A stretch of DNA of 64,000 nt from Candidatus Poribacteria bacterium (lineage in GTDB: Bacteria; Poribacteria; WGA-4E; WGA-3G), in the NCBI GenBank assembly GCA_022827625.1, contig JAJEIE010000027.1, positions 174,827-238,826 of the forward strand. Direction: 5' to 3'. A program made the position numbers and the translations under genes. The notes below the pieces were generated by a model. That model saw only the letters and a list, made by a program, of their open reading frames with translations, was not told the origin of the DNA and did no database searches. Each line of letters begins with the position of its first letter. Position 1 is the stretch's first letter. Shown in pieces: positions 1 through 13,156 of the stretch.

Positions 1-1
1 G

Positions 2-631
2 AACTGGAAACTCCGTATCCTTGACTGGCTCTCGAAATGCTATCCGATCACACACGTTTGTGTTGAAGATATAAAGGCACGGACGATAGAACGTGCGAAG
101 AAGTGGAATCAGTCGTTTAGTCCTTTGGAAGTCGGTAAACAGTGGTTCTACACCGAAGTTGAGAAGCGTTGGCAACTGCGAACCCTTCAAGGCTACGAAA
201 CCAAAGAGATACGCGACAGGTTAGGTCTGAAGAAGTCGTCAAAGAAACTATCGGAAACCTTTGATGCTCATTGTGTTGATTCTTGGTGCTTAGCGTACCA
301 CACAATCGGTGGAAACGAAATGCCGGATAACACAGCTATATTCTATATTTCTCCGATACCTATTCGTAGACGAGAACTTCATAGACAAAATCCTCAAAGA
401 GGGGGTAAACGTCCCCGCTATGGCGGCACAACTTGGAGCGGATATGTCAAGAACACACTCGTCAAACACGTCAAACACGGTTTGACCCGGATTAGCGGAT
501 TTAGCAAACAAGGTATCTCCCTGTATTCTTTAGAGGGAAAACGCCTTTGCCAAAATGCGAAGACACAAGATTATAAGGTGCTAACCCGCCTTAAATTTAA
601 CTATAGGAGCGGGGTTTCCTCCCACAGCTAA
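2..631 (+). CDS. RNase H-like (RuvC-fold) nuclease domain protein, 5'-truncated at the window edge; possibly an IS/OMEGA-type (IsrB/TnpB-like) nuclease
   Basis: An open frame runs from nt 2 with no start inside the window. It has a 'VCVEDIKA' acidic motif, and about 70 aa later 'FDAHCVDSWCLAYH', which resembles the RuvC-II (E) and RuvC-III (D/H..D..H) motifs. An Arg-rich basic C-terminal tail follows ('PIRRRELHRQNPQRGGKRPRY'). No HNH and no zinc finger are seen. Confidence 0.3.
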   Translation, partial: NWKLRILDWLSKCYPITHVCVEDIKARTIERAKKWNQSFSPLEVGKQWFYTEVEKRWQLRTLQGYETKEIRDRLGLKKSSKKLSETFDAHCVDSWCLAYHTIGGNEMPDNTAIFYISPIPIRRRELHRQNPQRGGKRPRYGGTTWSGYVKNTLVKHVKHGLTRISGFSKQGISLYSLEGKRLCQNAKTQDYKVLTRLKFNYRSGVSSHS

Positions 632-660
632 AGCAGTGGGTCTCCACCCCGAATACTTTG

Positions 661-747
661 ATGAAAATGCGTCTGTTTTTATGCACAATGCTGCTCAGTT
701 CAGTTTTTATTTCTTTAGGATTCGCACAAGAGAGTTGTCCTGCTTGA
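661..747 (+). other. Signal-peptide-encoding ORF (MKMRLFLCTMLLSSVFISLGFAQESCPA) ending in TGA, in the same frame as the downstream beta-barrel ORF
   Basis: Has an n/h/c region with an AXA-like cleavage site 'GFA|QE'. The TGA at 745-747 is in frame with the ATG at 775. Confidence 0.4.
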
Positions 748-774
748 AGCAATCCCGTCTTACCGCCGAGCGGT

Positions 775-1710
775 ATGATGAGTGAAGTCAGTTCGGCTTC
801 AAAAGAGATAGAGCAATTTCGAGTAAATATCAATATGTTGGCTTCACCTGATGCACAAGGTGGACATCTTGAATCAAGGGGACTTTCACCAACCGGAGAA
901 ATCGTGAATGCTCCTTTGCATAGACACCGTGTAGCGTTGAGTACTTACCGAATTGATGTCGGATTACAATACTTGCTTAACGATCGGTGGATGTTGCAGG
1001 CAAATATTCCGTATGCTGTCAGAGACCAAGATGCCAGCATTGAATGGCTTGATCCAGTGAGTCCTGAAGAGGAACAAGCCATTTTGCGGAGCCGGGATAT
1101 CCATCATCGAGATGAAACCTATACCGGGCTTGCCGATTCAGATTTGTTCTTAGGCTATAAAACTCACGGCCTCTTTAAAACGGATGATATATTGTTTGCC
1201 CGGTTAGGCACCACAATTCCAACCGGCAGAACCGAGGAAAACCCGTGGAAACTTGGAGACGCAGGTATTGAACACCTTCATATCCAGTTTGGCACCGGTA
1301 CTTTTAATCCTACTGTTAGTCTCCAGTACAGTCTGCCTTTCTACCAAAGGGGGTCTGTTAATGCGTCGACGCGTGGAACATTTCCATTCTATGAAAATAG
1401 TAAGACTTATCGAGGTCCAGTCGAATTAAGTTATACGATTGGCTGGAGGTATCGCCTTTTCGATTGGCTTTCATTTAACGGAAACTATCTCGGATTTTAT
1501 CAATCCGCTGCCGCTTGGGATGGCGAGCGCGATATCAATACCGGGTTGCGTTACAGCATGGCAGCACTCGGTGTGTCCTTGGCAACACTGGACGGCATTA
1601 CCGTCTCCGCCAACGTTATGTTTCCGCTGACGCAACAGACCCTTTATGATGAAAGTGATGCGATTGAATTTGGCAATTTGGTCTCTTTGACGACAACCTA
1701 TTCATTTTAG
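775..1710 (+). CDS. Outer-membrane beta-barrel protein with a C-terminal aromatic residue; possible pseudogene, or a read-through/selenoprotein if extended to 661
   Basis: Shows an alternating amphipathic beta-strand pattern and ends '...TTTYSF', typical of an OMP C-terminus. There is no signal peptide when started at 775; the signal peptide lies upstream, separated by an in-frame TGA. Confidence 0.55.
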   Translation: MMSEVSSASKEIEQFRVNINMLASPDAQGGHLESRGLSPTGEIVNAPLHRHRVALSTYRIDVGLQYLLNDRWMLQANIPYAVRDQDASIEWLDPVSPEEEQAILRSRDIHHRDETYTGLADSDLFLGYKTHGLFKTDDILFARLGTTIPTGRTEENPWKLGDAGIEHLHIQFGTGTFNPTVSLQYSLPFYQRGSVNASTRGTFPFYENSKTYRGPVELSYTIGWRYRLFDWLSFNGNYLGFYQSAAAWDGERDINTGLRYSMAALGVSLATLDGITVSANVMFPLTQQTLYDESDAIEFGNLVSLTTTYSF

Positions 1711-1780: not shown

Positions 1781-2413
1781 ATGAAAATGAAAGTGATGGG
1801 GCGAATTGTCGCCTCCTTCTTAGCAATTACCACCGTGCTGCTGTTTTCAGTCTTTTCGATTAAGGCAGAGGACGCGCACAAGAAGCATGAAACCCATCAT
1901 CAGGGTGATCACATGGCTGCTGATGACGACAAAGTACGTTGTGCAGTTGATGGCATGATGATGAAGCCTTCAGCAATGATCAAAGTCGAACAAGACGGAG
2001 AAGCCTACTATTTCTGCAGCAATATGCAGGTAGAGATGTTCAAGGCGAATCCGAATCAGTTCCTCCAAACAATTTCAGTGGGAAATTTGACATTTGATCT
2101 CAACGTACTAACTACAGATGCTTACAAGATGATGATGTCTCACATGGGAATGGGAGGCATGATAAAAGCCGATGAGATTAAAGGAAAAACACACTATATT
2201 AGTGTGTATCCGACCCAAGAACACGCTAAGGTTATGTTAGGTGATGTGAAACTCGCCATTCAAGTGACCAATACCGAAGGCGAGACGAAGATGGCATTGC
2301 TGAAATACAGCAAAATGACCCACACCTATGCAGGATTCATTGTTATGCCAAAGGGTGAAGAACATGAAGTTCGCATTCGCGTAACAAGTCCAGCTGTCAA
2401 GATTTCGCTTTAG
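1781..2413 (+). CDS. Periplasmic YHS/TRASH-domain metal-binding protein, His- and Met-rich (copper/silver-type)
   Basis: Has a signal peptide, a His-rich stretch 'HKKHETHHQGDH', a YHS-like motif 'CAVDGMMMKPS...YYFCSNMQVEMFKANP', and a Met-rich 'MMMSHMGMGGM'. A good RBS 'aaaggag' precedes the start. Confidence 0.65.
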   Translation: MKMKVMGRIVASFLAITTVLLFSVFSIKAEDAHKKHETHHQGDHMAADDDKVRCAVDGMMMKPSAMIKVEQDGEAYYFCSNMQVEMFKANPNQFLQTISVGNLTFDLNVLTTDAYKMMMSHMGMGGMIKADEIKGKTHYISVYPTQEHAKVMLGDVKLAIQVTNTEGETKMALLKYSKMTHTYAGFIVMPKGEEHEVRIRVTSPAVKISL

Positions 2414-2505: not shown

Positions 2506-3864
2506 ATGCGTACAGTTAGTTTAGCATACCAAATGGCGTTAGTTGTTATCGGAAGCGTAATAGTGCTAAATGCTTTGGTCGGAAAAGAAGCGCACGGGAG
2601 CATCCAAGAAGCGTCAACGCCAGAGCAAATCACCGATGTAACGACTCTATTTGCTGAAACGCTTGAGCTGCCAAACTTAATTCGGGTTGCCGTTGCGCGG
2701 AGCCCAAAAGTTAGAGCCGCGAAAGCGCGGTGGCAGGCAACAATTGAACAGTATCCACAAGTGACGGCATTGCCTGATCCGATGTTCATGTACGGCTACT
2801 ATGTGCGGAGCGTGGAGACACGCGTCGGACCTCAACGCCATCGGCTTAGTTTTTCGCAGACATTTCCATATCCCGGCACCCTTGAGGCAGCCGGAGAGGT
2901 TGTCAAAAAGGCAATTGAGGTTGAGCGTGTGAAGCATGAACAAGTGATACGTGATCTCATTGTTGAACTGAAACTGAGTTATCACGAATTGGCGTACCTC
3001 CAACGCGCAGTCGAATTGACGCAACAAAATCACGAACTGTTAACTTCTATTCTCACGATTGCCACGGCGCGCTATGCCGAAGGAAAGGCAGTGCTCAATG
3101 ATGTCCTGAAGGCACAGAGTCAACTCGCCCAGTTGGAATATGATCTCGTCCTGTTGGAGGAATTACAGCGCGTTGAACATGCAAACATTACGGGGACCCT
3201 ATCGATTCCTTCAACAACGGCACTGGGTACGACAGTGCCTGTCCCATACCAGACGCTTGATGTCGGATTGGCTGATGTAGAGAAACAGGCATTATCAAAA
3301 CGGCAGGAATTACGGATTGCCGAATTAAGCATCGAGAAAGCCAGCGAACGGATTGCGCTCGCAGAACTTCAAACCAAACCCATGCTTAAACTTGATTTAA
3401 TGACAATAGAAACCGGTGAAGCATTGATGCCGGATGCCATTGGGAGTGGTAAAAATCCGTTCACCATCGGTTTTGGTGTAACAATTCCGTGGTCAAGTCT
3501 GAAGAACAGGAGCAAGATTCGCGAGGCCCAGCAAAACCGTGAGGTTGTCACGGCGAACAAACGCGCCCTTGAAGATAAAACGAAGGTCGCCCTTCGGAAG
3601 ATTTATTTTCGGCTTGAAAACGCCCGACGGCTCGTCGAACTTTATGAAACCACACTCATTCCACAAGCCGGTGCCGCAATTGAAGTCGCTGAGGAGTGGC
3701 ATCAGGAAGGTCCCAAGAGCATTGCAGGGTTCCTTGAGACGCAGAGCGTTTGGTTGAATTTTAATCTCGCTCGCCTGCGCGCGATCGCAGACTATCAACA
3801 AAACCTCGCTCGGTTGGAGCAGCTCGTCGGAGGGAAAATTGATGATTTACGTCCTGCACAGTAG
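2506..3864 (+). CDS. TolC-like outer membrane efflux protein (OMF) of a heavy-metal RND system (CusC/CzcC-like)
   Basis: Has a signal peptide, two OEP-type coiled-coil/barrel repeats, and an N-terminus 'LPNLIRVAVARSPKVRAAKARWQA' typical of OMFs. Confidence 0.8.
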   Translation: MRTVSLAYQMALVVIGSVIVLNALVGKEAHGSIQEASTPEQITDVTTLFAETLELPNLIRVAVARSPKVRAAKARWQATIEQYPQVTALPDPMFMYGYYVRSVETRVGPQRHRLSFSQTFPYPGTLEAAGEVVKKAIEVERVKHEQVIRDLIVELKLSYHELAYLQRAVELTQQNHELLTSILTIATARYAEGKAVLNDVLKAQSQLAQLEYDLVLLEELQRVEHANITGTLSIPSTTALGTTVPVPYQTLDVGLADVEKQALSKRQELRIAELSIEKASERIALAELQTKPMLKLDLMTIETGEALMPDAIGSGKNPFTIGFGVTIPWSSLKNRSKIREAQQNREVVTANKRALEDKTKVALRKIYFRLENARRLVELYETTLIPQAGAAIEVAEEWHQEGPKSIAGFLETQSVWLNFNLARLRAIADYQQNLARLEQLVGGKIDDLRPAQ

Positions 3865-5458
3865 ACACAAATTACAAGGCCTGTTTACCTCTGTAACACT
3901 GTTCACTACGCTGATAATTCTCACTATTCTGGTGGGCGGGTGTGTGAATCGTCAATTGGAAACGTACCAAGAACTGCGTAGCACTGAGATACAACCACCC
4001 GCGTATTACTATACAGAAGTTAAAAAAGAGATTGCCAATACCGAAAACGAATCGACTGGAGAACCAGACCCGTTCCTCAGTGAGATTGAAGAAAAAGTAT
4101 TGAAATACCAAAAACAGTGGCAAACACAATTAAAAAGTGAAATACCGATACCAAATCTGTTTTATGATCTTTCAACAGACACCGTGAAAACCTATCGGCA
4201 GTTGGCAGCGTCACCCGAAGAAGCAAAAACCCGGCTTACCCAACCTATTGTGTTGGAACTTCTTATAGCACTCGGATACGAATGGAACCCAGGCTTGAAA
4301 TCTGCCCATGAGAAAATTCGAGCTGTGTTAGAGCAATATCCGCAAGCGGCTTACTTAGAGAATGTGTTACGTCAGTATAACGCTTTCACAAAACAACTTG
4401 ATACCAAAGTTGGACCGATGCGCCATAAAGAGATGATGGCAATGAAATTTCCGTTCCCAGACACCTTAACGTTGAAAGGGCAAATCATCACTGAAGATGT
4501 GCTAATTGCCCAAAAAGAGTTTGAAATCGCCCTACGAGATCTGGTGACAGAGATCAAGTTGGCGTACTACGATTATCTTTTTATTCTTGAAGCGACCCGT
4601 ATTAACGAAGAAAATCAAAAATTACTGGAGCAGATGATTGCGATTGCCCAAACGAAGTTTCGGGTCGGACAGGGCAAATATTCAAACGTCATTATGGCAC
4701 AGGTGGAATTATCGAAATTAGCAGAGGTAATTATTACACTTGAGCAACAGCGCGAAACTATCATTGCGCGCCTTAATACGTTGTTGAACGCTTCCGCGGA
4801 TTTGCCTTTAGGACCTCCTGTGCCAATTGAAGAAGAACGCATTACACTTACTTTAGCCGACCTATATAAATTAGCGGTTGAAAAACGTCAGGAAATCCAA
4901 AAACAGAAGTTGGCAATCAGTAAGATGAGTTTGATGGTGGAAATGGCAAAGCAAATGACGTATCCCGACCCGACCCTCGGTGCAAGTTACTTTGAAAACC
5001 GGGCTATAGCAGACTTGAAACATAGAAAAAAAATGCCGATGACATTTTCCACACAACGGACATTGAATCCAGCAAATACTGCATGGTTCGGACACCGCAA
5101 TTCATACATCCACGAAATTAATGTAAAGATTGAAGTAATGGCGCATAAAATTGAAGAACTTGAAAGTAATCTCCGCTTTGTTGTGAAAAAACATCATTTT
5201 GGGATGGAGACAGCAAATCGGAGTATTCGGCTCTATCGCCAGACGCTGCTTCCGCAAGCACAGCAGGCGTTGGAGGCGGCGAATACTGCTTACCAAGCGG
5301 CACAAATTGACTTTTTGAGTTTTCTTGATGTCCAACGTACTTTATTAAATCTGAGGATTGAGGAGCAGCGAGCCTTACGCGATTATCGCCAACATCTCGC
5401 ACAGTTGGAACAGGCAGTTGGCACACTATTACCCAAACAATCGCTGATCCAAGAGTAG
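3839..5458 (+). CDS. Second TolC/NodT-family outer membrane factor, lipoprotein
   Basis: Has a lipobox 'LVGGC' followed by an OMF repeat architecture. Its start overlaps the previous stop; the true start may lie slightly downstream. Confidence 0.7.
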   Translation: MMIYVLHSRHKLQGLFTSVTLFTTLIILTILVGGCVNRQLETYQELRSTEIQPPAYYYTEVKKEIANTENESTGEPDPFLSEIEEKVLKYQKQWQTQLKSEIPIPNLFYDLSTDTVKTYRQLAASPEEAKTRLTQPIVLELLIALGYEWNPGLKSAHEKIRAVLEQYPQAAYLENVLRQYNAFTKQLDTKVGPMRHKEMMAMKFPFPDTLTLKGQIITEDVLIAQKEFEIALRDLVTEIKLAYYDYLFILEATRINEENQKLLEQMIAIAQTKFRVGQGKYSNVIMAQVELSKLAEVIITLEQQRETIIARLNTLLNASADLPLGPPVPIEEERITLTLADLYKLAVEKRQEIQKQKLAISKMSLMVEMAKQMTYPDPTLGASYFENRAIADLKHRKKMPMTFSTQRTLNPANTAWFGHRNSYIHEINVKIEVMAHKIEELESNLRFVVKKHHFGMETANRSIRLYRQTLLPQAQQALEAANTAYQAAQIDFLSFLDVQRTLLNLRIEEQRALRDYRQHLAQLEQAVGTLLPKQSLIQE

Positions 5459-5536
5459 TTTTTCTATAAGACTTGCGCTAAATAACTTTTTGTAAAATAT
5501 CGTTTCACACAAGTAGACCGGACAAGGAGTTTAAAA

Positions 5537-7510
5537 ATGCCTAAGAATTTTTACCGCGCAACCCTACTGATTATTATCGTGCTTTTCGTATTCGGCTGTA
5601 ATCAACAAGAGAACGCTGAGATGGCGCGTCGTGTTAATGAAAAACATGACACGGCATCGGAGGGCATGTCGGGTATGGATGGACACGCCGACCCTGTGTT
5701 GAGTGAAGGACCTGATGCAACATTGGAGAACACATCGGGCATGGATGAACACGGCGACCATGGCACAATGGTGGCATCCTCAGATGAAACGAAAACAATT
5801 CGGTTCTGGACTTGTGTTATGCATCCGACAGTCAAAATGTCAGAACCCGGTAGTTGTCCGGTTTGTAAGATGGATCTGATCCCTATTTATGAAGGTTCAG
5901 GGCTGGAACTGACTGAGCAACAGAAGGCGTTGATGCCGGTCCGCACCGAGCCTATCGCTTTCCGCGAAGTTTCGCGTGAAATCCGAACCGTCGGTGTTCT
6001 GGATTATAACGAGACGCGTATGGCGTATGCTTCAACGCGAATTTCTGGGTGGATTGAGGACTTGCACATTGATTTCACCGGTATCAAGGTGCGTGAGGGA
6101 GATGAACTTTTGTCTATCTACAGCCCAGAATTAGTCACGGCACAGGAAGAATATCTGACAACACTTAAAAGCATTGAGGAACTTCAAAATACAGAATATG
6201 TCCAACTTCGCAAATCGGTTGAACAGACGCTTACCGCTGCGAAATCCAAACTTGAATTGTATGGGCTGACCTTAAACCAGATTGAAGATATTCGCAACCG
6301 CGGAGAAGTCAGCACAACTTTACCACTGTTCGCTCCGATGGCTGGGACTGTGGTTCACATGAACGTTAGCCAAGGGCAGCATGTAAACAGAGGTATGAAT
6401 CTTTACCGTATTGCGGATCTCAATAGTTTATGGATTATGGCGGACGTTTACGAATATGAATTGCCGTGGATTTACATGGGACAAGCCGTTGAAATTACGA
6501 CGCAGGCGATGCCGGGGCAGACGTTTTCTGGCAAAGTTACCTATATTTATCCGTTTTTTGACGCGCAAACGCGGACACAGAAGGTCCAGATAGAAGTCGC
6601 CAATCCGATTGGACGCCTCCGTCCAGGGATGTATGTAACGCTCCAGATAAAACCGACACTTGCAGAAATCTATACACATGGGGCGATCTCTCAAGCACCG
6701 TATGCGTGCCCGATGCATCCATGGGTTACTTCTGAACATCCCACTGAATGTGAGATATGTGGCATGGATCTGGAACCGACACATCCCGATATGATTGGGT
6801 CTGAATCAGCGGCTGAAACAGATAAGAAGTGGGTCTGTCCGATGCATCCTGAAATCCAATCCGAGGAATTCAATGAATGCTCCATCTGCGGTATGGACCT
6901 CGTTGAAAAAGCGGAAATATCTACACCGGCAGAGACGACAGCATCTGTTTGGACGTGTCCGATGCATCCTGAGGAGCAATCTGATGAGTTCGGAGAATGC
7001 TCTATCTGTGGCATGGATCTTATTGAAAAACAGCCAACAGCAGCGGGAACTGACACCCATTTCCATGCACATCAACCTACAGTCCCTTCAGATCAGCCGC
7101 CACTAATTTTTAAATATGTATGTCCTGACCATCCCGATGAGTATGCGACTGTCCCGGGATTGTGTCCACGTGATAGAAAGCCACTTCTTATGACCGGGGA
7201 AGTCTTAACCGTTCCTAAGAGTGCAGTCATCAACACGGGGTTACGAAAGATAGTTTTTGTAGATCGTGGCGAATCGGGTTATGAACAGATTGAAGTCGAG
7301 GTGGGTCCTGAAGCTTGGGGAACATCAGGCGACTCAGAGACCAAACGCCGATACTATCCAATTGTTAGCGGGCTTACGCCTGGCGATATGGTCGTCACCC
7401 ACGGCAACTTCCTGATAGATTCGCAAACACAATTAACAGGCTCCGCATCTGGGGCTTATGGTGGGGCAATCGGTGGTGAAGAATCAGCAGCCCCGGTCCA
7501 TCAACATTAA
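5537..7510 (+). CDS. RND efflux periplasmic adaptor (membrane fusion protein, CusB/CzcB family) carrying five CxxC-type heavy-metal-binding (HMBD/TRASH-like) modules
   Basis: Has a lipoprotein signal 'VFGC' and MFP barrel/lipoyl motifs. The repeated modules are 'WTCVMHPTVKMSEPGSCPVCKMDL', 'YACPMHPWVTSEHPTECEICGMDL', 'WVCPMHPEIQSEEFNECSICGMDL', 'WTCPMHPEEQSDEFGECSICGMDL' and 'YVCPDHPDEY...CPRD'. Confidence 0.8.
   Translation: MPKNFYRATLLIIIVLFVFGCNQQENAEMARRVNEKHDTASEGMSGMDGHADPVLSEGPDATLENTSGMDEHGDHGTMVASSDETKTIRFWTCVMHPTVKMSEPGSCPVCKMDLIPIYEGSGLELTEQQKALMPVRTEPIAFREVSREIRTVGVLDYNETRMAYASTRISGWIEDLHIDFTGIKVREGDELLSIYSPELVTAQEEYLTTLKSIEELQNTEYVQLRKSVEQTLTAAKSKLELYGLTLNQIEDIRNRGEVSTTLPLFAPMAGTVVHMNVSQGQHVNRGMNLYRIADLNSLWIMADVYEYELPWIYMGQAVEITTQAMPGQTFSGKVTYIYPFFDAQTRTQKVQIEVANPIGRLRPGMYVTLQIKPTLAEIYTHGAISQAPYACPMHPWVTSEHPTECEICGMDLEPTHPDMIGSESAAETDKKWVCPMHPEIQSEEFNECSICGMDLVEKAEISTPAETTASVWTCPMHPEEQSDEFGECSICGMDLIEKQPTAAGTDTHFHAHQPTVPSDQPPLIFKYVCPDHPDEYATVPGLCPRDRKPLLMTGEVLTVPKSAVINTGLRKIVFVDRGESGYEQIEVEVGPEAWGTSGDSETKRRYYPIVSGLTPGDMVVTHGNFLIDSQTQLTGSASGAYGGAIGGEESAAPVHQH
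6817..7060 (+). repeat. Internal tandem duplication of about 126 nt inside the adaptor gene, encoding repeated CPMHP...CSICGMDL modules
   Basis: Two near-identical DNA units are visible (aagtgggtctgtccgatgcatcctga... / ...tggacgtgtccgatgcatcctga...). They generate spurious overlapping ORFs on both strands. Confidence 0.7.
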
Positions 7511-7608
7511 TCCGAAAATTTACTAAGTCTTGTTTCTGATGTTGAATTACTAAGAACCCTTTCATCATCCAGAGACAATTGAACTTCACCGAAAACCACC
7601 GTGAAATG

Positions 7609-7634
7609 AAATTATGCCTTAAATGGCATAATTT
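7609..7634 (+). promoter_or_regulatory. Perfect 10-bp hairpin (AAATTATGCC-ttaaat-GGCATAATTT) in the adaptor-pump intergenic region
   Basis: Read directly from the sequence. It could be an attenuator, RNA processing site or operator; the function is unknown. Confidence 0.35.
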
Positions 7635-7682
7635 GTCTTTGCTTTACATTTGGAACGGTGACCAGATTTAATAATTAAAAAA

Positions 7683-10600
7683 ATGATTAACCGAATTATT
7701 GAAATCTGTATGAAAAACCGCCTGTTGGTATTAGTTATCTTTGTGTTTGTCACAATAGCAGGTTGGTGGGCATTGAACCATACACCCATTGATGCACTAC
7801 CGGATATCGGCGAAAACCAGGTAATTGTCTTTGCGGATTGGCCCGGACGCAGTCCGAGGGATATTGAGGATCAGGTTATCTATCCGTTGAGTATTACCAT
7901 GCTTGGAATTCCCGATGTCAAAGATGTTCGCTCGACTTCAATGTTTAGTTTTGGTTACATTAACATTATTTTCAAAGATGATGTTGATTTCTATTGGGCA
8001 CGAACAAGAGTACTGGAACGTATGAACCTTGCCCAAAAAGACATGCCGGAGGGTGTTGTGCCGGTCCTGGGTCCTGATGCAACGGGTGTCGGACAGGTAT
8101 TTTGGTACACCGTTGAGAACGGGTACTATTGCCCGAAGCATCCAACGGAACGCTACGCCGAACCGGGCACCTGTCCGGAAGATGGAGAAAAACTTGTCGC
8201 TGCCAATTTAGAACTACATGAACTTCGATCGCTCCAAGATTGGACGGTTCGTTACTATCTTGCTTCTGCTGATGGTGTTTCTGAAGTCGCTTCAGTCGGT
8301 GGATACGTCAAGCAGTATCAGATCGACATCGATCCGAACACGTTATTAGCCTATAATGTGCCGTTATCAGCGGTTTATAACGCTATCCGAGGGAGCAATC
8401 TTGATGTTGGCGCAAAGGTTATTGAGGAAGGCGGGATGGAGTTCCTAATTCGGGGCTTGGGCTTTATCAAAAACATTGAGGACATAGAAAACATCGTTGT
8501 CAAGGAACATAACGGTGTGCCAATCTACGTAAAAAACCTTGGAACAGTCAGTGAAGGTCCCGACTTTCGGCGCGGTGCTTTAGACAAAGCGGGCGTGCCA
8601 GCGACCGGTGGTGTCGTGCTAATGCGCTACGGGGATAACCCGCTACGTGTGATTGAGAATGTTAAGGCGAAGATAGCCGAGCTTACACCGGGACTGCCAC
8701 CAGGAGTCCGAATTGTCTCGTTTTACGATCGAAGTCATCTTATTCATCGCGCAACAGATACACTGAAGGAAACGCTAACAGAAGAGATCATCGTCGCTGC
8801 AGTTGTTATCCTGCTTTTCTTAGGACAAGTTTCGAGCAGCCTAATAATAGCACTCGTCTTACCGATGGGAGTTTTGCTTGCGTTTGTAGGCATGCGGATG
8901 ATTGGTTTACCCTCGAATATCATGTCGATGGGTGGTATCGCCATCGCGATTGGTGTTATGGTGGATGCTGGTATTGTAATGACAGAAAATATCGCGCGAC
9001 ATTTGCAAGATCCACACCCAAGCGAAAGCAAACTTCAGGTCGCAACTCGTGCAGCTAAAGAGGTCGGTCCGCCCATCTTCTTCGCAATGCTCATTGTCAT
9101 TGTCGCCTTCATACCTGTTTTTTCCCTTACTGGTCAAGCGGGTAAACTCTTCAAACCCCTGGCATATACAAAAACTTTCGCTATGCTTGGTGCAGCACTT
9201 CTCGCAATCAGTTTGGTGCCTGTTTTAGCGTCTATCCTACTCACGGACCCAACGCGGACCCGAACAGGTGCGATTTCCAAGCGAGTCTCACAACTTCTGG
9301 GACTCCTCGGCTGGCCCCTCAGAAAGTTAGCAGATGGGATTACTTGGGTGCTCAGAACCAGCTATCGTCCGATTATTCGGTTGGCTGTAAAAAATATCTG
9401 GACGAAACTTGCCGTTGTCGCTTTGGCACTCCTGGCGTTTGTCGCAAGTATACCACTCACGCCTTTCTATAAAAATATCGGGCAGGAATTCATGCCACCA
9501 CTTAATGAAGGCGCATTGTTGTTTATGCCGGTGCTACTCCCGGGTGCCTCAATCACACAAGCAAAAGATGTGATGGCAAAACAGGATTTGATTATGAATC
9601 GATTCCCGGAAGTTTCACTTGTCGTTGGAAAATTGGGAAGAGCATCAACGGCAACCGACCCGGCTCCTATTGGCATGTTTGAAACGATCGTCAATATAAT
9701 TGACCCAGCGACGTGGCCCCGACGAGCGATTAAACCCAACCCGACAAGAGAACTTGTGTCTGCTCTTGTTCAACGCTTAATACACGACGGACTTATAAGT
9801 GAGGAACATGCAAGCCATATTGGTGCTGATTTTCTGGATGAAATTGTTGCAACGGCGGTAGAACGATTTGATACCTTAGCGACAACATACCACAATTCTT
9901 ATCTGTCAGTTGATGCGCGCGAGAAACTCTATCGCATCTGGTTATTACGGATTCTTTTGGAAGAACTCCTCGCTGAAGAACGGGCAGGCGAAATGCGGTT
10001 GGAACACGTCAGGGTTGGTGAATCTGAAACCGAAAAGAAACTTCATCGGATCGCTGAGGAAATTGAACCTACCCTCAAACATAAGACTTACTTCCGAACG
10101 AAGAACCGAAACGAACTCATCGCTGAACTGACGGAAGCAACCCGAATGCCAGGTGTCTCGCCTATTATGACGCAACCCATCCGTAATCGTGTTGATATGC
10201 TCGCAACAGGCATACAAACCCCCATCGGTATCAAAGTGTTTGGGAAAGACCTCGCGAAAATTGAAGAGATTGCCGTGCGAATTGAGCAGGAACTCCTTAA
10301 ACTTGAGGGCGCGCAAGGTCCCTATGCCGAGCGCATTGGAAATAAGCCATACCTTGAATTTCACATTAACAGAGAGGAAGCAGCGCGCTACGGCATCCAA
10401 ATCCGAACAGTTCAGCAAATCATCATGACAGCCATCGGTGGTATGAATCTGACCTATACTGTTGAAGGACGGGAGCGATTTCCAATTCGTATCCGTTACA
10501 TGAGGGAACTACGGGATAATGTTGAAGCACTCAAGCGTGTTCTCGTCCCATCACCAAAAGGACTCCATATTCCGCTTGAGCAACTCGTAACAATTGAAAG

Positions 10601-11351
10601 ACGTCCGGGACCCGCGAAGATTGCAAGCGAAAATACACTACTCTTTTCGCGCGTCTTTTGTGATGTAGATGTTGACACCATTGGACTGGTTGACTTCGTC
10701 GCATTAGCGCAAAAGACGCTTGATGAGAAGATTAAACCCACGCTACCGCAAGGCTACTTCTACGCTTTTAGTGGGCAGTATGAAGCTGAACTGGAAGCCC
10801 GCAGTCGATTAGCAATTGTCGTCCCGGTGTGTATTGCTGTCATCTTCATATTGCTATACCTCCAGTTCAAGTCGCCGTCTGCGATGTTTTCGATTTTCCT
10901 TGCGATTCCTTTTGCATTCATCGGTGGCATGTGGATGCAGTGGTTGATGCAATACATACCAGAGGCACTCGGCGGTGGTTACGCCATTAAATACAGTACA
11001 GCCGTGTGGGTGGGGTATATAGCCTTATTTGGCATAGCGGTCGAGGATGGCATCGTCTTAATTGAATATTTACTCGAACGCGTCCGAGGCGGTGAACCGA
11101 TTGACGAAGCCGTCATCAGTGCCGGTTTATTACGCGTCCGACCCATCGTCATGACCACGGCGACGACAGTTCTGGCATTATTACCCATTATGTTGGCAGA
11201 AATTAGCACGACTACCGGTGCGGAGTTGATGAAACCCATCGCAGTTCCTACCTTTGGTGGAATGGTGTCGGCAACGATGGCTAATCTTATCTTAGCACCC
11301 GTGTTATTCTCTCTCTTCTATCCCATCGAACGCTGGATTCGTGAACGGTAG
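7683..11351 (+). CDS. Heavy-metal efflux RND transporter (CusA/CzcA family), unusually long
   Basis: The N-terminus 'MINRIIEICMKNRLLVL' resembles CusA 'MIEWIIRRSVANRFLVL', and there are 12-TM AcrB-type motifs. Extras are a 'CPKHPTERYAEPGTCPEDGEKL' CxxC insertion and a roughly 150-aa periplasmic insertion. Confidence 0.85.
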   Translation: MINRIIEICMKNRLLVLVIFVFVTIAGWWALNHTPIDALPDIGENQVIVFADWPGRSPRDIEDQVIYPLSITMLGIPDVKDVRSTSMFSFGYINIIFKDDVDFYWARTRVLERMNLAQKDMPEGVVPVLGPDATGVGQVFWYTVENGYYCPKHPTERYAEPGTCPEDGEKLVAANLELHELRSLQDWTVRYYLASADGVSEVASVGGYVKQYQIDIDPNTLLAYNVPLSAVYNAIRGSNLDVGAKVIEEGGMEFLIRGLGFIKNIEDIENIVVKEHNGVPIYVKNLGTVSEGPDFRRGALDKAGVPATGGVVLMRYGDNPLRVIENVKAKIAELTPGLPPGVRIVSFYDRSHLIHRATDTLKETLTEEIIVAAVVILLFLGQVSSSLIIALVLPMGVLLAFVGMRMIGLPSNIMSMGGIAIAIGVMVDAGIVMTENIARHLQDPHPSESKLQVATRAAKEVGPPIFFAMLIVIVAFIPVFSLTGQAGKLFKPLAYTKTFAMLGAALLAISLVPVLASILLTDPTRTRTGAISKRVSQLLGLLGWPLRKLADGITWVLRTSYRPIIRLAVKNIWTKLAVVALALLAFVASIPLTPFYKNIGQEFMPPLNEGALLFMPVLLPGASITQAKDVMAKQDLIMNRFPEVSLVVGKLGRASTATDPAPIGMFETIVNIIDPATWPRRAIKPNPTRELVSALVQRLIHDGLISEEHASHIGADFLDEIVATAVERFDTLATTYHNSYLSVDAREKLYRIWLLRILLEELLAEERAGEMRLEHVRVGESETEKKLHRIAEEIEPTLKHKTYFRTKNRNELIAELTEATRMPGVSPIMTQPIRNRVDMLATGIQTPIGIKVFGKDLAKIEEIAVRIEQELLKLEGAQGPYAERIGNKPYLEFHINREEAARYGIQIRTVQQIIMTAIGGMNLTYTVEGRERFPIRIRYMRELRDNVEALKRVLVPSPKGLHIPLEQLVTIERRPGPAKIASENTLLFSRVFCDVDVDTIGLVDFVALAQKTLDEKIKPTLPQGYFYAFSGQYEAELEARSRLAIVVPVCIAVIFILLYLQFKSPSAMFSIFLAIPFAFIGGMWMQWLMQYIPEALGGGYAIKYSTAVWVGYIALFGIAVEDGIVLIEYLLERVRGGEPIDEAVISAGLLRVRPIVMTTATTVLALLPIMLAEISTTTGAELMKPIAVPTFGGMVSATMANLILAPVLFSLFYPIERWIRER

Positions 11352-11410
11352 AGGGTATGTATAAGGATTATTTTTTTACTATTTGTCCTGAAAATGAAAT
11401 TGGAGGAATC

Positions 11411-12025
11411 ATGAAACTTCTGACTACATTCGGCATCTGTATACTCGTCGGTCTTGTGGGGTTACCAACTGTTGATGCTGCACTTGAACTCGAAAAATAC
11501 TTACATGTCGCAAAAGGCGGGGTCGTAAGCGTCGGTCGCGGATTAGCGATTACCGATAAAGAATTGGAGATCGCACGCACCGAAGAATTCTCTATCGGAT
11601 TCCAATTAACCCCCGCACTTCGATTCTCAGTGCCATTCAGTCGTTACGTTGTGGATACTCGCGGTGGTAACACTGATGTTTTACCCTTCGGGATGTTGGA
11701 TATTGAGACTGTAGGTATGATGCTGACACTGAGTGGACGTGGGAAGTGGGCACCATTTATTGGGTTCGGAGCAAATTTCTACGCATTTACTGAACAGTTC
11801 GCTGCACCTGCTAATATCCAGAACACTTTTGGGGCAGAAGTGTCTACTGGGGTTAACAGGAGACTTATTGATAGCATCTTTGGTGTCGCTCAGTTGTACG
11901 GATCGTTTGGCTATCAATTCAGTTATTTAAGACCGGGGGTGAGTGTGCCTACCAGACCTGACGTTGAGACGTTATCATTAGGTCGCCATAGCATTAACTT
12001 CCGGTTAGAGGTCTTGGGGTTGTAG
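11411..12025 (+). CDS. Secreted or outer-membrane hypothetical protein
   Basis: A strong RBS 'ggagg' precedes the ATG at 11411, and a signal peptide 'MKLLTTFGICILVGLVGLPTVDAA' follows. The rest is beta-rich. Confidence 0.5.
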   Translation: MKLLTTFGICILVGLVGLPTVDAALELEKYLHVAKGGVVSVGRGLAITDKELEIARTEEFSIGFQLTPALRFSVPFSRYVVDTRGGNTDVLPFGMLDIETVGMMLTLSGRGKWAPFIGFGANFYAFTEQFAAPANIQNTFGAEVSTGVNRRLIDSIFGVAQLYGSFGYQFSYLRPGVSVPTRPDVETLSLGRHSINFRLEVLGL

Positions 12026-12172: not shown

Positions 12173-13156
12173 ATGTATTTTCAAATCTACCGCCAGTTTT
12201 GTATAAATATCTTGTTAGTGCTTGTCTTTTTCATAGTAAGTCTGCCATTACTCGGTAACGCCGATGAAGCAGAAATGCCAGATCAAAGGTTGATGGCTCT
12301 CTTTCCAGCAGCGAAAAAATTTGTTCTAAGAAGCCCTATGCTCACAGCCGACCAAATTGCTGGCATTGAAAAAGAACTGGGTGCAGAACTTCTGACGGAA
12401 GATCAGAAACCCGTTTTTTACATTCCGATCAGTGAGAAAAAAAAGCCTTTGGGTTTGGCATTGTTCGCGAATGCTGAGGGACCGAGTGGTGTTATTGAGG
12501 GTGCTGTCGGACTGGATATGCGCGGAAAAGTGGTGAAAGTAGAGGTCTATAAGCATCAGGAATCAGAGGCGATTGTCGGATCGGAATTTCTTAAGCAATT
12601 CATCGGTATGGGTATAGATAACACTTTCAAGGTTGGCGTAGATATTGATACTATTAACGGGCATGAGGAGGCTTCAAACGCAGTCGCGCTGATGCCAAAA
12701 AAGACATTGGTGATGAGTTATGCCCTCTTTTCAAAAAAGAAATCGGAACCGGAACCAAAAGCAGAAAAGACACCAGAGCCTGCTGCACCAGTGAAAGATC
12801 TGCCTGAAGTTGAAGACCTTAAAGCACTCATGATGTTAATGATAGATGACTATTTCGTGGTCGTTGATTACTTTGATGACAAAGAGAGTAAGACGAAAGC
12901 CATTCAGGCAGCAAAGCGACTCGCCAGATATGCAAAGAGTATTTCAAACTTTGAACCCCCGAAAAATGCGGATCAGACGGAAGAGTATGTCTACCTGCAG
13001 GACAAGTTTAGCGAGACACTCCTTAAATTCGCTGAGGCACTTGAGATGGAAGGTATTTCTGACGAAACACGCAAGCAGTGGGATGCTATCGTTACCTTAA
13101 TCAATCAGTCACACCTTCGGTTTAGCGAGGAAGAGATTGACCTGGATACGTATTAG
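12173..13156 (+). CDS. Secreted FMN_bind-like domain protein (NosR/RnfG/NqrC-type fold) with a charged C-terminal extension
   Basis: Has a signal peptide, and the central region resembles an FMN-binding domain. The canonical flavinylated 'SGAT' motif is not obvious. Confidence 0.45.
   Translation: MYFQIYRQFCINILLVLVFFIVSLPLLGNADEAEMPDQRLMALFPAAKKFVLRSPMLTADQIAGIEKELGAELLTEDQKPVFYIPISEKKKPLGLALFANAEGPSGVIEGAVGLDMRGKVVKVEVYKHQESEAIVGSEFLKQFIGMGIDNTFKVGVDIDTINGHEEASNAVALMPKKTLVMSYALFSKKKSEPEPKAEKTPEPAAPVKDLPEVEDLKALMMLMIDDYFVVVDYFDDKESKTKAIQAAKRLARYAKSISNFEPPKNADQTEEYVYLQDKFSETLLKFAEALEMEGISDETRKQWDAIVTLINQSHLRFSEEEIDLDTY

What the first reader, a model, noticed from the sequence alone, without database searches (positions are those of the whole stretch)
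661..1710. In-frame TGA separates a signal peptide from an outer-membrane beta-barrel ORF, producing a C-P-A-U (CxxU) motif
The ORF at 661 encodes a textbook signal peptide (MKMRLFLCTMLLSSVFISLGFA|QESCPA) and ends at a TGA (745-747). That TGA is exactly in frame with the ATG at 775 of the beta-barrel ORF, which otherwise has no signal peptide. Read-through would give a mature N-terminus QESCPA-U-SNPVLPPSG... with a CxxU redox or metal-binding-like motif in a heavy-metal efflux neighbourhood. A candidate stem-loop lies 9 nt downstream of the TGA: CGUC-U-UACCGC-CGA-GCGGUA-U-GAUG. A second hairpin is GAAGUC-AGUUC-GGCUUC. Alternative explanations are a nonsense-mutation pseudogene or a sequencing error.
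Basis: seen in the sequence. Interest (0 to 1): 0.55.

Follow-up and report, generated by a model that had tools for sequence, protein, structure and literature searches.

The report
Selenocysteine outer-membrane metal channel gene
The TGA at 745-747 is almost certainly read as selenocysteine, so 661-1710 is one gene for an outer-membrane barrel protein with a Cys-x-x-Sec motif on its flexible N-terminus; this protein family is missing from selenoprotein catalogues and is always mis-annotated as a truncated, signal-less ORF.

Summary

- **The stop.** The TGA at 745-747 joins a signal peptide (661-726) in frame to a beta-barrel ORF.
- **Conservation.** The same in-frame TGA occurs in all 48 distinct Candidatus Poribacteria orthologue sequences. 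The 16 surrounding codons vary almost only at third positions (2/0/14). It also occurs in five other phyla, many as TGA-x-x-TGA (UxxU).
- **Cys counterparts.** Bacteroidota and a few other relatives are full length, with C-P-A-C-S-N-P at the same place.
- **SECIS candidates.** Two covarying hairpins follow the TGA (756-780, 783-801). Proteobacterial and myxococcal members carry a GGU-type apical loop at fdhF-like spacing. Cys forms lack the compact hairpin.
- **Machinery.** Published COG tables list SelA, SelB and SelD for Poribacteria WGA-3G, which carries an orthologue.
- **Fold.** AlphaFold gives a 12-stranded barrel (pLDDT 94), closest to the COG4313 channel. It has seven conserved histidines and a disordered N-terminal tether carrying the motif.
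- **Partner.** Outside Poribacteria a signal-peptide (HMA)-thioredoxin gene lies immediately upstream in 18 of 18 loci, within Cu/Hg resistance islands. Here the gene heads a YHS-OEP-OEP-CusB-CusA cluster.

No Pfam, NCBIfam, PDB or literature entry describes the family. It is a new member of a known kind. The metal-handling function is inferred, not shown.

The parts
661..1710 (+). Full coding sequence of the selenoprotein precursor: 349 codons including Sec29, then stop TAG 1708-1710
   Evidence: Single-frame translation with one internal TGA. The reading frame is conserved across the TGA in 48 distinct orthologue sequences.
661..726 (+). Signal peptide MKMRLFLCTMLLSSVFISLGFA. Predicted signal peptidase I cleavage after G-F-A.
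   Evidence: Read from the sequence: basic n-region, hydrophobic core, small-x-small site. Present in frame upstream of the TGA in all orthologues and as the N-terminus of the full-length Cys forms. No signal-peptide predictor was available.
736..747 (+). C26-P27-A28-U29 motif (TGT CCT GCT TGA), at residues 4-7 of the predicted mature protein
   Evidence: The motif is CPA-TGA in most Poribacteria, TGA-x-x-TGA in 16 loci of other lineages, and CxxC in Cys forms.
745..747 (+). TGA read as selenocysteine (Sec29)
   Evidence: TGA in 48 of 48 distinct Poribacteria sequences while all flanking codons vary synonymously. Cys codon at the homologous site in L064 and L070-L073.
756..780 (+). Hairpin 1, the SECIS candidate at canonical distance. 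Lower stem 756-759 with 777-780, upper stem 761-766 with 770-775, apex about 22 nt after the TGA.
   Evidence: RNAfold. Covariation: pair 756/780 is CG 23, UA 10, UG 4, GC 1. Minimum free energy at +9..+40 is -13.1 kcal/mol, against -4.7 to -7.4 in Cys forms.
783..801 (+). Hairpin 2, UGAAGUC-AGUUC-GGCUUCA, with a conserved G-U-containing loop. Either a second SECIS element or the SelB-binding one.
   Evidence: 98% of cells paired, 4 of 8 pairs with compensatory changes. Present in Poribacteria, Acidobacteriota, Planctomycetota and Eisenbacteria members.
727..816 (+). Flexible periplasmic N-terminal tether (mature residues 1-30) that carries the CxxU motif and the conserved S-N-P
   Evidence: The first 10 residues of the 775-start ORF have pLDDT below 50. 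The CxxC segment of the Cys homologue P0127 has pLDDT below 50.
817..1707 (+). 12-stranded outer-membrane beta-barrel. Conserved histidines (full-length numbering): H89, H148, H149, H205, H207 invariant; H69, H87 at 90% or more.
775..1710 (+). The truncated ORF (MMSEV...) that gene callers annotate. Not the real gene start.
   Evidence: The top 120 database homologues all stop at 72-89% coverage and none includes the signal peptide. The ATG is not conserved: ATGATG 18, CTGATG 10, ATAGGT 10, TTGATG 8. This ORF has no signal peptide.
1781..2413 (+). Exported YHS-domain, His/Met-rich protein. First gene of the downstream metal cluster.
   Evidence: Pfam YHS E=2e-6, 28.1 bits, below the 30.3-bit cut-off. 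Follows the barrel gene in about 30 Poribacteria loci.
2506..11351 (+). Heavy-metal RND efflux genes: OEP 2506-3864, OEP 3839-5458, CusB-like with 4 HMBD repeats 5537-7510, CusA 7683-11351
   Evidence: Pfam. NCBIfam TIGR00914 CusA/CzcA, 939 bits against a cut-off of 701.
1..660 (+). Foreign 5' flank. An ORF running off the window start (to 631) replaces the native upstream region right up to the start codon.
   Evidence: Similarity (99.1%) to locus L069, which encodes the 99%-identical protein P0001, starts exactly at base 661. L069 and other Poribacteria loci have a 146-aa Cys-rich gene upstream instead.

Best explanation
Bases 661-1710 are one gene for an exported selenoprotein.

- **Decoding (inferred from conservation).** The UGA at 745-747 is decoded as selenocysteine by SelB and Sec-tRNA(Sec). 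These are recruited by an mRNA hairpin just downstream in the coding sequence: hairpin 1 at 756-780, possibly together with hairpin 2 at 783-801.
- **Product (inferred from sequence and models).** The 349-residue precursor has a Sec-type signal peptide that is cleaved after Ala22. The mature protein is a 12-stranded outer-membrane beta-barrel of the COG4313-like fold, with seven conserved histidines. These are presumably in the lumen or on inward-folded loops, but that was not checked on coordinates. In front of the barrel lies a disordered periplasmic tether of about 30 residues that begins Q-E-S-C-P-A-U-S-N-P.
- **Function (inferred from context).** The Cys/Sec pair is a two-coordinate soft-metal site for Cu(I), Hg(II) or Ag(I), and/or a redox-active selenenylsulfide. 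It passes metal between the barrel and periplasmic partners. In most phyla the partner is a co-transcribed signal-peptide-HMA(MxCxxC)-thioredoxin(WCGPC) protein. In Poribacteria the neighbours are a Cys-rich 146-aa protein and the YHS/Cus efflux cluster.
- **Consequence (follows from the decoding step).** Production of the barrel depends on selenium supply and the Sec machinery. Termination at the UGA would leave only a 28-residue peptide.

The direction of metal flow (uptake or export) is unknown.
For: **1. Conserved in-frame TGA.**
- 48 of 48 distinct Poribacteria sequences keep TGA.
- In the 16 codons QESCPA-TGA-SNPVLPPSG the variable sites fall 2/0/14 by codon position, so there is protein-level purifying selection on both sides.
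- In total 66 loci plus the window have TGA at this site, never TAA or TAG.
- 16 loci from Acidobacteriota, Planctomycetota, Eisenbacteria, Pseudomonadota, Myxococcus and divergent Poribacteria have TGA at both motif positions.

**2. Cys homologues at the same site.**
- P0127, P0143, P0145 and P0147 have CPACSNP. P0245 and L064 have CP[AG]CQNP. P0189, P0216, P0231 and P0259 have CA[GA]C[RG]NP. All are full length with signal peptides.

**3. RNA structure.**
- Hairpins downstream have 95.3% of cells paired, against 24-43% when the partners are slid.
- Seven pairs have changes on both sides, reached by 0 of 500 shuffles.
- In proteobacterial and myxococcal members the stem is kept (CCUCCA/UGGAGG, CCUGCC/GGCAGG, UCUCCC/GGGGGA) while the encoded residues change. 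Their loops are GGUC, GGC or GUC, about 21-24 nt from the UGA.
- All 52 Sec forms fold at -9.2 to -19.7 kcal/mol over +9..+40. The three distinct Cys forms fold at -4.7 to -7.4.

**4. Genetic code and machinery.**
- TGA terminates 4 of 43 long ORFs here.
- SelA, SelB and SelD COGs are present in Poribacteria WGA-3G (PMC5649159 Table S4), the genome of orthologue locus L037.
- Sec-containing hydrogenases are reported in Poribacteria (PMC13582414).

**5. The ATG at 775 is not the start.**
- The 775-start ORF lacks a signal peptide, and its ATG is absent in many orthologues.

**6. Fold.**
- AlphaFold2 model of the window barrel: pLDDT 94.4. Model of Cys homologue P0127: pLDDT 90.3, with a disordered motif segment.

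**7. Metal link.**
- An (HMA)-thioredoxin gene lies directly upstream in 18 of 18 non-Poribacteria loci that have upstream DNA.
- Neighbouring genes include P-type ATPases, a multicopper oxidase, a CsoR-like regulator and MerTP (NF033556, 273 bits).
- P0145 is a barrel-HMA fusion.
- A Cus cluster lies downstream here.
- H89, H148, H149, H205 and H207 are invariant; H69 and H87 are conserved at 90% or more.
Against: - There is no direct evidence of Sec incorporation: no proteomics and no 75Se labelling.
- No tRNA-Sec, selA, selB or selD lies in this 64-kb window. The machinery could not be checked in the source genome itself. It is documented only for another Poribacteria genome, and only as COG counts.
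- Hairpin 1 in Poribacteria has a C-N-A loop without the G/U seen in well-studied SECIS elements. The hairpin that does have a GU loop (hairpin 2) has its apex about 44 nt from the UGA, beyond the usual 16-37 nt. Which hairpin binds SelB is therefore unresolved.
- No Rfam family matches, even at E up to 10.
- The covariation sits in coding sequence of related genomes, so the shuffle control overstates significance.
- The metal-binding role rests on gene context and motif analogy only.
- In this window the native 5' flank has been replaced, so expression of this particular copy is not assured.
Confidence: 0.9

Rival explanations
1. The UGA is recoded by the SelB/SECIS route but inserts cysteine, through a tRNA(ReC)/SelC*-type tRNA. 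The product would then be a CxxC protein, not a selenoprotein.
For: PMC13582414 discusses SelC* tRNAs that decode SECIS-associated UGA as Cys, and looks for them in genomes with UxxU motifs. Nothing in the sequence data can tell Sec from Cys insertion.
Against: Canonical SelA and SelD, which are needed only to make Sec, are recorded for Poribacteria WGA-3G. A plain Cys codon would give the same product at no cost, yet TGA is kept in 48 of 48 distinct sequences. No tRNA of any kind lies in the window.
Confidence: 0.03
2. These are two separate products: a 28-residue leader peptide ending at the TGA, and a barrel protein started independently at ATG 775, perhaps by translational coupling or as a regulatory upstream ORF.
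For: Every gene caller annotates it this way. An ATG lies 27 nt after the TGA in this window.
Against: - A barrel starting at 775 has no signal peptide and could not reach the outer membrane.
- The ATG is replaced by CTG, TTG or ATA-GGT in many orthologues.
- The nine codons between the TGA and 775 (SNPVLPPSG) are conserved at the protein level, with synonymous changes only.
- Those codons are homologous to the CSNP... segment of uninterrupted Cys forms.
Confidence: 0.03
3. It is a nonsense-mutation pseudogene or a sequencing or assembly error at 745-747.
For: This is the default reading of a single in-frame stop in one sequence. The replaced 5' flank shows that this locus has been disturbed.
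Against: The same TGA is present in 66 independent loci from many assemblies, sequencing technologies and phyla. Selection is codon-position biased on both sides, and the barrel is intact and highly conserved.
Confidence: 0.01
4. The organisms use an alternative genetic code or general stop-codon read-through, with TGA read as Trp or Gly.
For: One database entry (P0185) shows W at both positions (SWGAWSNP), so some pipeline translated it with a TGA=Trp table. TGA is the rarest stop in the window.
Against: TGA ends 4 of 43 long ORFs in the window. Homologues have Cys at the site, not Trp or Gly. The TGA occurs in phyla that use the standard code, and it is accompanied by a local hairpin that Cys forms lack.
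Confidence: 0.02

Closest known systems
Bacterial selenoproteins with CxxU/UxxC/UxxU motifs that have Cys-containing homologues (catalogue of 119 families in PMC13188914, Table 1)
   Same: An in-frame UGA at a position occupied by Cys in relatives. A SECIS-like hairpin inside the coding sequence just downstream. A CxxU or UxxU motif. Links to heavy-metal genes, as for the MerT-like, E1-E2 ATPase, SO_0444, UxxU metal-binding and YHS selenoproteins.
   Different: This family is not in that catalogue and matches no NCBIfam selenoprotein model. The Sec sits on a disordered N-terminal tether of an outer-membrane barrel, not in a thioredoxin-like fold. In proteobacterial members the first Sec follows directly after the A-F-A that ends the signal peptide, so it may be the first residue of the mature protein.
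COG4313 / Phenol_MetA_deg outer-membrane channels (Pput2725, PDB 4RL8)
   Different: Pfam score 19.9 is below the gathering score of 22. Sequence identity is 12%. COG4313 channels are described as carrying hydrophobic molecules. They have no CxxC/CxxU tether, no conserved His cluster and no metal-gene context.
PcoB/CopB copper-resistance outer-membrane protein (PDB 7PGE)
   Different: No sequence relationship: no Pfam CopB hit and no PDB sequence hit with the family profile. To my knowledge PcoB uses Met/His-rich repeats rather than a Cys/Sec pair.
HMA-domain MxCxxC sites and the Mer thiol relay (MerP, MerT, MerTP, CopZ)
   Same: A two-Cys (here Cys/Sec or Sec/Sec) x-x-spaced motif suited to linear Cu(I) or Hg(II) coordination. 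Encoded next to HMA proteins, and in Cyclobacteriaceae two genes (about 300 nt) upstream of MerTP. Selenoprotein versions of HMA and MerT proteins are known (PMC13188914).
   Different: The motif is not inside a ferredoxin-like HMA fold or a transmembrane helix. It is on an unstructured tether attached to an outer-membrane barrel. To my knowledge no outer-membrane component of the Mer relay has been described.
[quoted passage not shown]
   Same: Outer-membrane beta-barrel proteins predicted to contain Sec. One has a CxxU motif.
   Different: Different barrel families: 22-stranded TonB-dependent receptor and MtrB/PioB type. No NCBIfam hit to either model. The Sec positions differ.
E. coli fdhF-type bacterial SECIS
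   Same: A hairpin starting about 9-14 nt after the UGA with its apex about 21-24 nt downstream. Proteobacterial and myxococcal members have a GGUC, GGC or GUC apical loop. From my own knowledge, fdhF has a GGUC loop with G23/U24.
   Different: Poribacteria hairpin 1 has a C-N-A loop, and a second conserved hairpin with an (A/G)GUU(U/C) loop follows it. One element must serve two UGA codons 9 nt apart in the UxxU forms.

Membership tests
Bacterial selenoprotein gene (UGA decoded as Sec) | In-frame UGA conserved among orthologues, with coding-type conservation on both sides | tested here: met
   TGA in 48 of 48 distinct Poribacteria sequences. Variable sites 2/0/14 by codon position in the 16 flanking codons. 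66 loci plus the window in total.
Bacterial selenoprotein gene (UGA decoded as Sec) | Homologues with Cys aligned to the UGA position | tested here: met
   CPACSNP, CPGCQNP and CA[GA]C[RG]NP in full-length homologues.
Bacterial selenoprotein gene (UGA decoded as Sec) | SECIS stem-loop in the mRNA immediately downstream of the UGA | tested here: met
   Hairpin at 756-780, apex about 22 nt from the UGA. It covaries and is absent or weak in Cys forms. Proteobacterial members have GGU-type loops. Caveats: no Rfam match, the Poribacteria loop lacks GU, and which hairpin binds SelB is unresolved.
Bacterial selenoprotein gene (UGA decoded as Sec) | selA, selB, selC (tRNA-Sec) and selD present in the same genome | tested here: inconclusive
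   None in the 64-kb window. The source genome could not be searched. COG counts SelA 2, SelB 1, SelD 1 for Poribacteria WGA-3G (PMC5649159 Table S4), which carries orthologue L037. tRNA-Sec was not checked.
Bacterial selenoprotein gene (UGA decoded as Sec) | Selenium physically present in the protein | not testable with these tools
   Needs 75Se labelling or mass spectrometry.
COG4313 / Phenol_MetA_deg (PF13557) outer-membrane channel | Pfam PF13557 score at or above the gathering threshold | tested here: not met
   19.9 bits against a cut-off of 22 for the window protein. Only a few homologues carry a precomputed PF13557 hit.
COG4313 / Phenol_MetA_deg (PF13557) outer-membrane channel | 12-stranded barrel superimposable on 4RL8 | tested here: met
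CopB/PcoB copper-resistance outer-membrane protein | Sequence membership (Pfam CopB, or a PDB 7PGE sequence match) | tested here: not met
Catalogued outer-membrane or metal selenoprotein models (NF049945 TBDR-FCYXU, NF041027 GSU2204, NF041115 UxxU metal-binding, NF033936 SO_0444, NF041384 YHS) | NCBIfam model hit above cut-off | tested here: not met
   The read-through protein (U written as C) and four Cys forms gave 0 NCBIfam families.
Outer-membrane beta-barrel protein exported by the Sec pathway | N-terminal signal peptide, beta-barrel and C-terminal aromatic residue | tested here: met
   Signal peptide read from the sequence. Barrel model pLDDT 94.4. The protein ends ...TTTYSF. No dedicated signal-peptide predictor was available.

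The most novel reading that the evidence does not exclude
The barrel and its Sec/Cys tether could be a so-far unrecognised outer-membrane member of the thiol/selenol relay systems for soft metals (Hg, Cu, Ag). In this reading the flexible UxxU/CxxU/CxxC 'fishing line' picks metal up at the periplasmic mouth of a histidine-bearing 12-stranded channel. It then exchanges the metal with a dedicated periplasmic HMA-thioredoxin (or, in Poribacteria, with the Cus/YHS proteins). The thioredoxin domain would keep the diselenol or selenol-thiol reduced in the oxidising periplasm. That would give Mer-like and Cu-resistance systems a specific outer-membrane gate, with selenium tuning its affinity and redox potential.
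Probability: 0.35. Interest if true: 0.8.

Novelty: new member of a known kind. Interest (0 to 1): 0.62.

Why it matters
- **Annotation.** Hundreds of database entries for this family (603 homologues) are truncated, signal-less 'hypothetical proteins'. One is even named 'restriction endonuclease subunit S'. Recognising the Sec codon restores the true N-terminus and explains how the protein reaches the outer membrane.
- **Selenoproteome.** It adds a family that is absent from the 2026 catalogue of 119 prokaryotic selenoprotein families. The family is present in at least six phyla, has CxxU, UxxU and CxxC states, and offers a natural series for studying Cys/Sec exchange and the decoding of two UGA codons by one SECIS region.
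- **Metal biology.** The conserved two-gene cassette, periplasmic HMA-thioredoxin plus tethered barrel, sits in Cu/Hg resistance islands. It points to a testable outer-membrane step in soft-metal trafficking, a step that is poorly understood.
- **Sponge symbionts.** Candidatus Poribacteria keep this gene with the Sec codion intact across about 48 species-level genomes, which suggests that selenium-dependent metal handling matters in the sponge habitat.

Tried and rejected
- **Rfam.** The gathering-threshold scan of the whole window found nothing. The permissive scan of 700-860 gave only a chance snoRNA hit and no SECIS family. Bacterial SECIS elements are too diverse for this to count against the finding.
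- **tRNA scan of the window**: no tRNA genes, so no tRNA-Sec here.
- **Structure prediction of the full read-through protein.** I therefore modelled a full-length Cys homologue and, separately, the window's barrel part.
- **Exact look-up of the window's 311-aa ORF** found nothing. The 99% relative P0001 gave locus L069 instead.
- **AFDB fold library** was not available.
- **Profile search of PDB sequences**: no relatives.
- **Literature searches** for a described family returned nothing relevant: selenoprotein + outer membrane + UxxU; selenoproteome + sponge; MerTP + outer membrane + thioredoxin; COG4313 + copper.
- **Scan of the window for other in-frame TGA sites with Cys/Ser motifs**: only weak, unconvincing candidates besides 745. 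Not pursued.
- **One alignment for all phyla.** An ungapped alignment of the proteobacterial hairpins could not be scored with a single structure, because 3-nt and 4-nt loops shift the register. I relied on per-sequence folds for those.
- **Considered and rejected:** lipoprotein processing of the first Cys. The Poribacteria site G-F-A|Q-E-S-C is not a lipobox, although some Cys forms (for example V-L-A-C in P0259) look lipobox-like. This was not tested.
Full report
**1. The observation.**

Translating window 661-1710 in one frame gives MKMRLFLCTMLLSSVFISLGFAQESCPA*SNPVLPPSGMMSEVSSASKEIEQFRVNINM...TTTYSF*. There is a single internal stop, TGA at 745-747, and the frame ends at TAG 1708-1710. The ORF list shows the short ORF 658/661-747 and the 311-aa ORF 775-1710 in the same frame.

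The neighbourhood is a heavy-metal efflux cluster:
- a YHS protein (sub-threshold Pfam match);
- two OEP outer-membrane factors;
- a CusB-like adaptor with four HMBD repeats;
- a CusA/CzcA pump (TIGR00914, 939 bits against a cut-off of 701).

TGA is an ordinary stop in this genome. Of the 43 long ORFs checked, 4 end in TGA, 22 in TAG and 17 in TAA.

**2. Is the stop real, and is it conserved?**

A protein search with the read-through sequence returned 603 homologues. The best 120 (63-99% identical, mostly 289-312 aa) cover at most 89% of the query. None includes the signal peptide, so all were called from a start downstream of the stop.

I fetched 68 loci from species-representative genomes. 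About 50 are Candidatus Poribacteria MAGs. The others are labelled Acidobacteriota, Planctomycetota, Gemmatimonadetes, Eisenbacteria, Myxococcus and Pseudomonadota. Translating upstream of each match shows a signal peptide followed by the same in-frame stop in every Sec-type locus.

At the nucleotide level the stop is always TGA, in 63 sequences including the window, and never TAA or TAG. Most Poribacteria read C-P-A-TGA-S-N-P. Thirteen loci read TGA-x-x-TGA-[ST]-N-P: two divergent Poribacteria, plus members labelled Acidobacteriota, Planctomycetota, Eisenbacteria, Pseudomonadota, Enterobacterales, Klebsiella (GC-rich, probably mis-binned), Myxococcus and Vicinamibacteria. Three further loci (L074-L076) read S-TGA-P-A-TGA-S-N-P.

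Among 48 distinct Poribacteria sequences, the 16 codons QESCPA-TGA-SNPVLPPSG have 2, 0 and 14 variable sites at codon positions 1, 2 and 3. Every sense codon shows synonymous variants, while TGA is 48 of 48. This is protein-level purifying selection running straight across the stop.

The ATG at 775 is not conserved. The two codons there read ATGATG in 18 sequences, CTGATG in 10, ATAGGT in 10 and TTGATG in 8. An ORF starting at 775 also has no signal peptide. Pseudogene, sequencing error and 'two separate genes' are therefore not tenable.

**3. Cys counterparts.**

The exhaustive search of 50%-identity representatives found 405 relatives. Those with an intact N-terminus have Cys at both motif positions, directly after a signal peptide:
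- ...AQACPACSNPALQ (P0127);
- FAQGACPACSNPTLPP (P0143);
- CPACQNPNLP (P0245);
- CA[GA]C[RG]NP (P0189, P0216, P0231, P0259).

A search seeded with P0127 found full-length Cys forms of about 350 aa. Every one that carries an organism name is Bacteroidota (Saprospirales, Cyclobacteriaceae, Flavobacteriales, Terrimonas), and all are 'hypothetical protein' without Pfam domains. A conserved UGA that aligns with Cys in homologues is the standard signature of a selenoprotein. One database entry, P0185, shows W at both positions (SWGAWSNP). It was evidently translated with a TGA=Trp table.

**4. The SECIS question.**

All 52 distinct Sec-type sequences fold into a hairpin that starts 9-14 nt after the (second) UGA, with its apex at about +21 to +24.

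- *Window.* Hairpin 1 is CGUC-U-UACCGC-CGA-GCGGUA-U-GAUG (756-780).
- *Proteobacterial and myxococcal members.* The stem is kept through compensatory changes (CCUCCA/UGGAGG, CCUGCC/GGCAGG, CCUGCC/GGCGGG, UCUCCC/GGGGGA) even though the encoded peptide changes (LQAGG, LPVGR, LPVGG). The apical loop is GGUC, GGC, GGU or GUC. From my own knowledge, the E. coli fdhF SECIS has a GGUC loop with G23/U24 contacting SelB. The geometry here is within one nucleotide of that.
- *Second hairpin.* Hairpin 2 (783-801 here, loop (A/G)GUU(U/C)) is conserved in Poribacteria and in the Acidobacteriota, Planctomycetota and Eisenbacteria members.
- *Covariation.* On a 44-sequence alignment the named structure has 95.3% of cells paired, against 24-43% when the 3' partners are slid. 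Seven pairs have changes on both sides, reached by 0 of 500 shuffles. Pair 756/780 is CG 23, UA 10, UG 4, GC 1.
- *Energies.* Over +9..+40 the Sec forms fold at -9.2 to -19.7 kcal/mol (mean -12.3). The three distinct Cys forms fold at -4.7, -5.3 and -7.4.

There are three caveats. These are coding sequences from related genomes, so the shuffle control is generous. Rfam has no match. In Poribacteria, hairpin 1 lacks a GU loop, while hairpin 2 has one but sits about 44 nt from the UGA, so I cannot say which hairpin SelB binds.

**5. Sec machinery.**

Nothing in the window encodes it, and I could not search the source genome. Two published sources bear on it:
- Table S4 of Slaby et al. 2017 (PMC5649159) lists, for Candidatus Poribacteria WGA-3G, COG1921 SelA = 2, COG3276 SelB = 1 and COG0709 SelD = 1 (the column was identified from the header). 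Locus L037 is from that very genome and has C-P-A-TGA-S-N-P.
- A 2026 study reports Sec-containing hydrogenases in Poribacteria (PMC13582414).

This feature is therefore supported indirectly. It has not been shown for this genome.

**6. The protein.**

AlphaFold2 was run with an 86-sequence alignment.
- The window's 775-1707 segment gives mean pLDDT 94.4 and pTM 0.87. It is a 12-stranded barrel whose first 10 residues are disordered.
- The full-length Cys homologue P0127 gives pLDDT 90.3. Its signal peptide is helical, and the CxxC segment (residues 24-33) is below pLDDT 50, so it is a flexible tether.

By sequence the family is orphan:
- Pfam gives only sub-threshold Phenol_MetA_deg and OMP_b-brl matches;
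- NCBIfam gives no hits for Sec or Cys forms;
- the family profile finds no PDB sequence relative.

Conserved columns (full-length numbering; H89, H148, H149, H205 and H207 are invariant, H69 and H87 at 90% or more) lie in the motifs DIHHR-x-ETY and HLHIQFGTGTF(N/D)P. D159, Q209 and W286 are also invariant. From the strand order, the helix-containing loops that carry HHR and HLHIQ should be the long extracellular loops L2 and L3. I did not have model coordinates to confirm where these residues sit. Placing them in the lumen is an inference.

**7. Context and likely function.**

*Poribacteria.* A 146-aa Cys-rich, probably membrane-anchored protein precedes the gene. It is followed either by YHS-OEP-OEP-CusB-CusA, as here (about 30 loci), or by a His-rich YtkA-like protein and an FMN_bind protein.

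*All other lineages.* The gene immediately upstream on the same strand encodes a signal peptide, usually an HMA domain (GMSCxxC), and a thioredoxin domain (WCGPC). This holds in 18 of 18 loci that have upstream DNA.

*Surrounding genes.* These include:
- HMA-P-type ATPases;
- a multicopper oxidase;
- CsoR-like and ArsR-type regulators;
- a MerTP fusion (NF033556, 273 bits against a cut-off of 180).

One homologue, P0145, is fused to a C-terminal HMA domain.

*Inference.* The barrel is a metal-related outer-membrane channel, and its N-terminal Cys/Sec pair is a soft-metal ligand and/or redox couple that works with the periplasmic HMA-thioredoxin. The direction of flow and the metal are unknown.

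**8. Comparison with what is known.**

The 2026 catalogue of 119 prokaryotic selenoprotein families (PMC13188914, Table 1) lists two outer-membrane barrels: a TonB-dependent receptor with an FCYXU motif, and a GSU2204/MtrB-PioB type. It also lists several metal-related families: MerT-like, E1-E2 ATPase, SO_0444, UxxU metal-binding and YHS. None corresponds to this protein, and none of their NCBIfam models matches it. Literature searches found no description of the Cys form either.

It works like any Cys/Sec-exchangeable bacterial selenoprotein. In fold it resembles COG4313 channels, and in logic it resembles PcoB and the Mer relay. It fails the sequence-membership tests for all of these families.

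**9. A peculiarity of this window.**

Similarity (99.1%) to locus L069, which encodes the 99%-identical protein P0001, begins exactly at base 661, the A of the start codon. Upstream, the window carries an unrelated ORF that runs off the left edge (to 631). It has no Pfam or NCBIfam match and no copy elsewhere in the window or in the fetched loci. The native promoter region and the 146-aa gene are thus displaced in this genome. The coding sequence, TGA and hairpins are intact.

**10. Verdict.**

- The TGA is a selenocysteine codon: confidence about 0.9.
- The family is a previously uncatalogued selenoprotein family, a new member of a known kind.
- The metal-handling role is a well-motivated inference, about 0.6, and the relay model about 0.35.
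- Interest is 0.62. This is not a new principle. It is a widespread, systematically mis-annotated family that opens a testable question about how soft metals cross the outer membrane.

Noticed in passing
window 1-660: The sequence upstream of the start codon is unrelated to the native flank. Similarity (99.1%) to locus L069 starts exactly at base 661. An ORF that runs off the window's left edge (to 631) fills the space. It has no Pfam or NCBIfam hit and no other copy in the window or the fetched loci. From memory only, its ...VEDIKA...DAHCVDS... motifs resemble a RuvC-type (RRXRR/IscB-like) nuclease of a mobile element.
   Followed up: partly
window 5537-7510 and 7683-11351: The CusB-like adaptor carries four HMBD (heavy-metal-binding) repeats, one N-terminal and three in a C-terminal insertion. 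The CusA pump is unusually long (1222 aa) and itself has an HMBD match at residues 148-172.
   Followed up: no
window 2506-3864 and 3839-5458: Two tandem, overlapping outer-membrane-factor (OEP/TolC-like) genes precede CusB, instead of the usual single CusC. This arrangement is conserved in about 30 Poribacteria loci.
   Followed up: no
L069 9264-9704; L003 2266-2706; L014 2265-2705: In Poribacteria a 146-aa Cys-rich protein sits directly upstream of the barrel gene, in the place that the HMA-thioredoxin gene occupies in other phyla. It has an N-terminal hydrophobic helix with C-P-L-L-C, then S-C-C and L-C-C-S. It has no Pfam or NCBIfam match.
   Followed up: partly
P0185 (representatives search): This database entry shows Trp at both Sec positions (QDSWGAWSNPVFP). 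It was evidently translated with a TGA=Trp table, which is another way this family gets mis-annotated.
   Followed up: no
P0145: A 442-aa Cys-form homologue has a C-terminal HMA domain fused to the barrel.
   Followed up: no
P0002: An NCBI Poribacteria orthologue of the barrel is named 'restriction endonuclease subunit S', an obvious mis-annotation.
   Followed up: no
L070 2294-4452 versus L071 2131-4452: The HMA-P-type ATPase near the Cys-form cassette is called as one 773-aa gene in L071. In the otherwise near-identical L070 it is split into 29-aa, 43-aa and 644-aa pieces. Whether this is an assembly error or an interruption was not examined.
   Followed up: no
window 19045-19974 and 25375-26319: Two paralogous genes fuse a Polbeta-type nucleotidyltransferase to a HepT-like domain (MNT/HepT toxin-antitoxin-like). 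Nearby, 20130-21980 encodes an HTH, Swt1-like HEPN and triple S1 domain protein.
   Followed up: no
window 11357-12025: A 222-aa ORF after CusA has no family match. It has a hydrophobic N-terminus and alternating beta-like sequence, so it may be a small outer-membrane protein. In genomes without the Cus cluster, the barrel gene lies close to the FMN_bind gene that sits at 12173-13156 here.
   Followed up: partly
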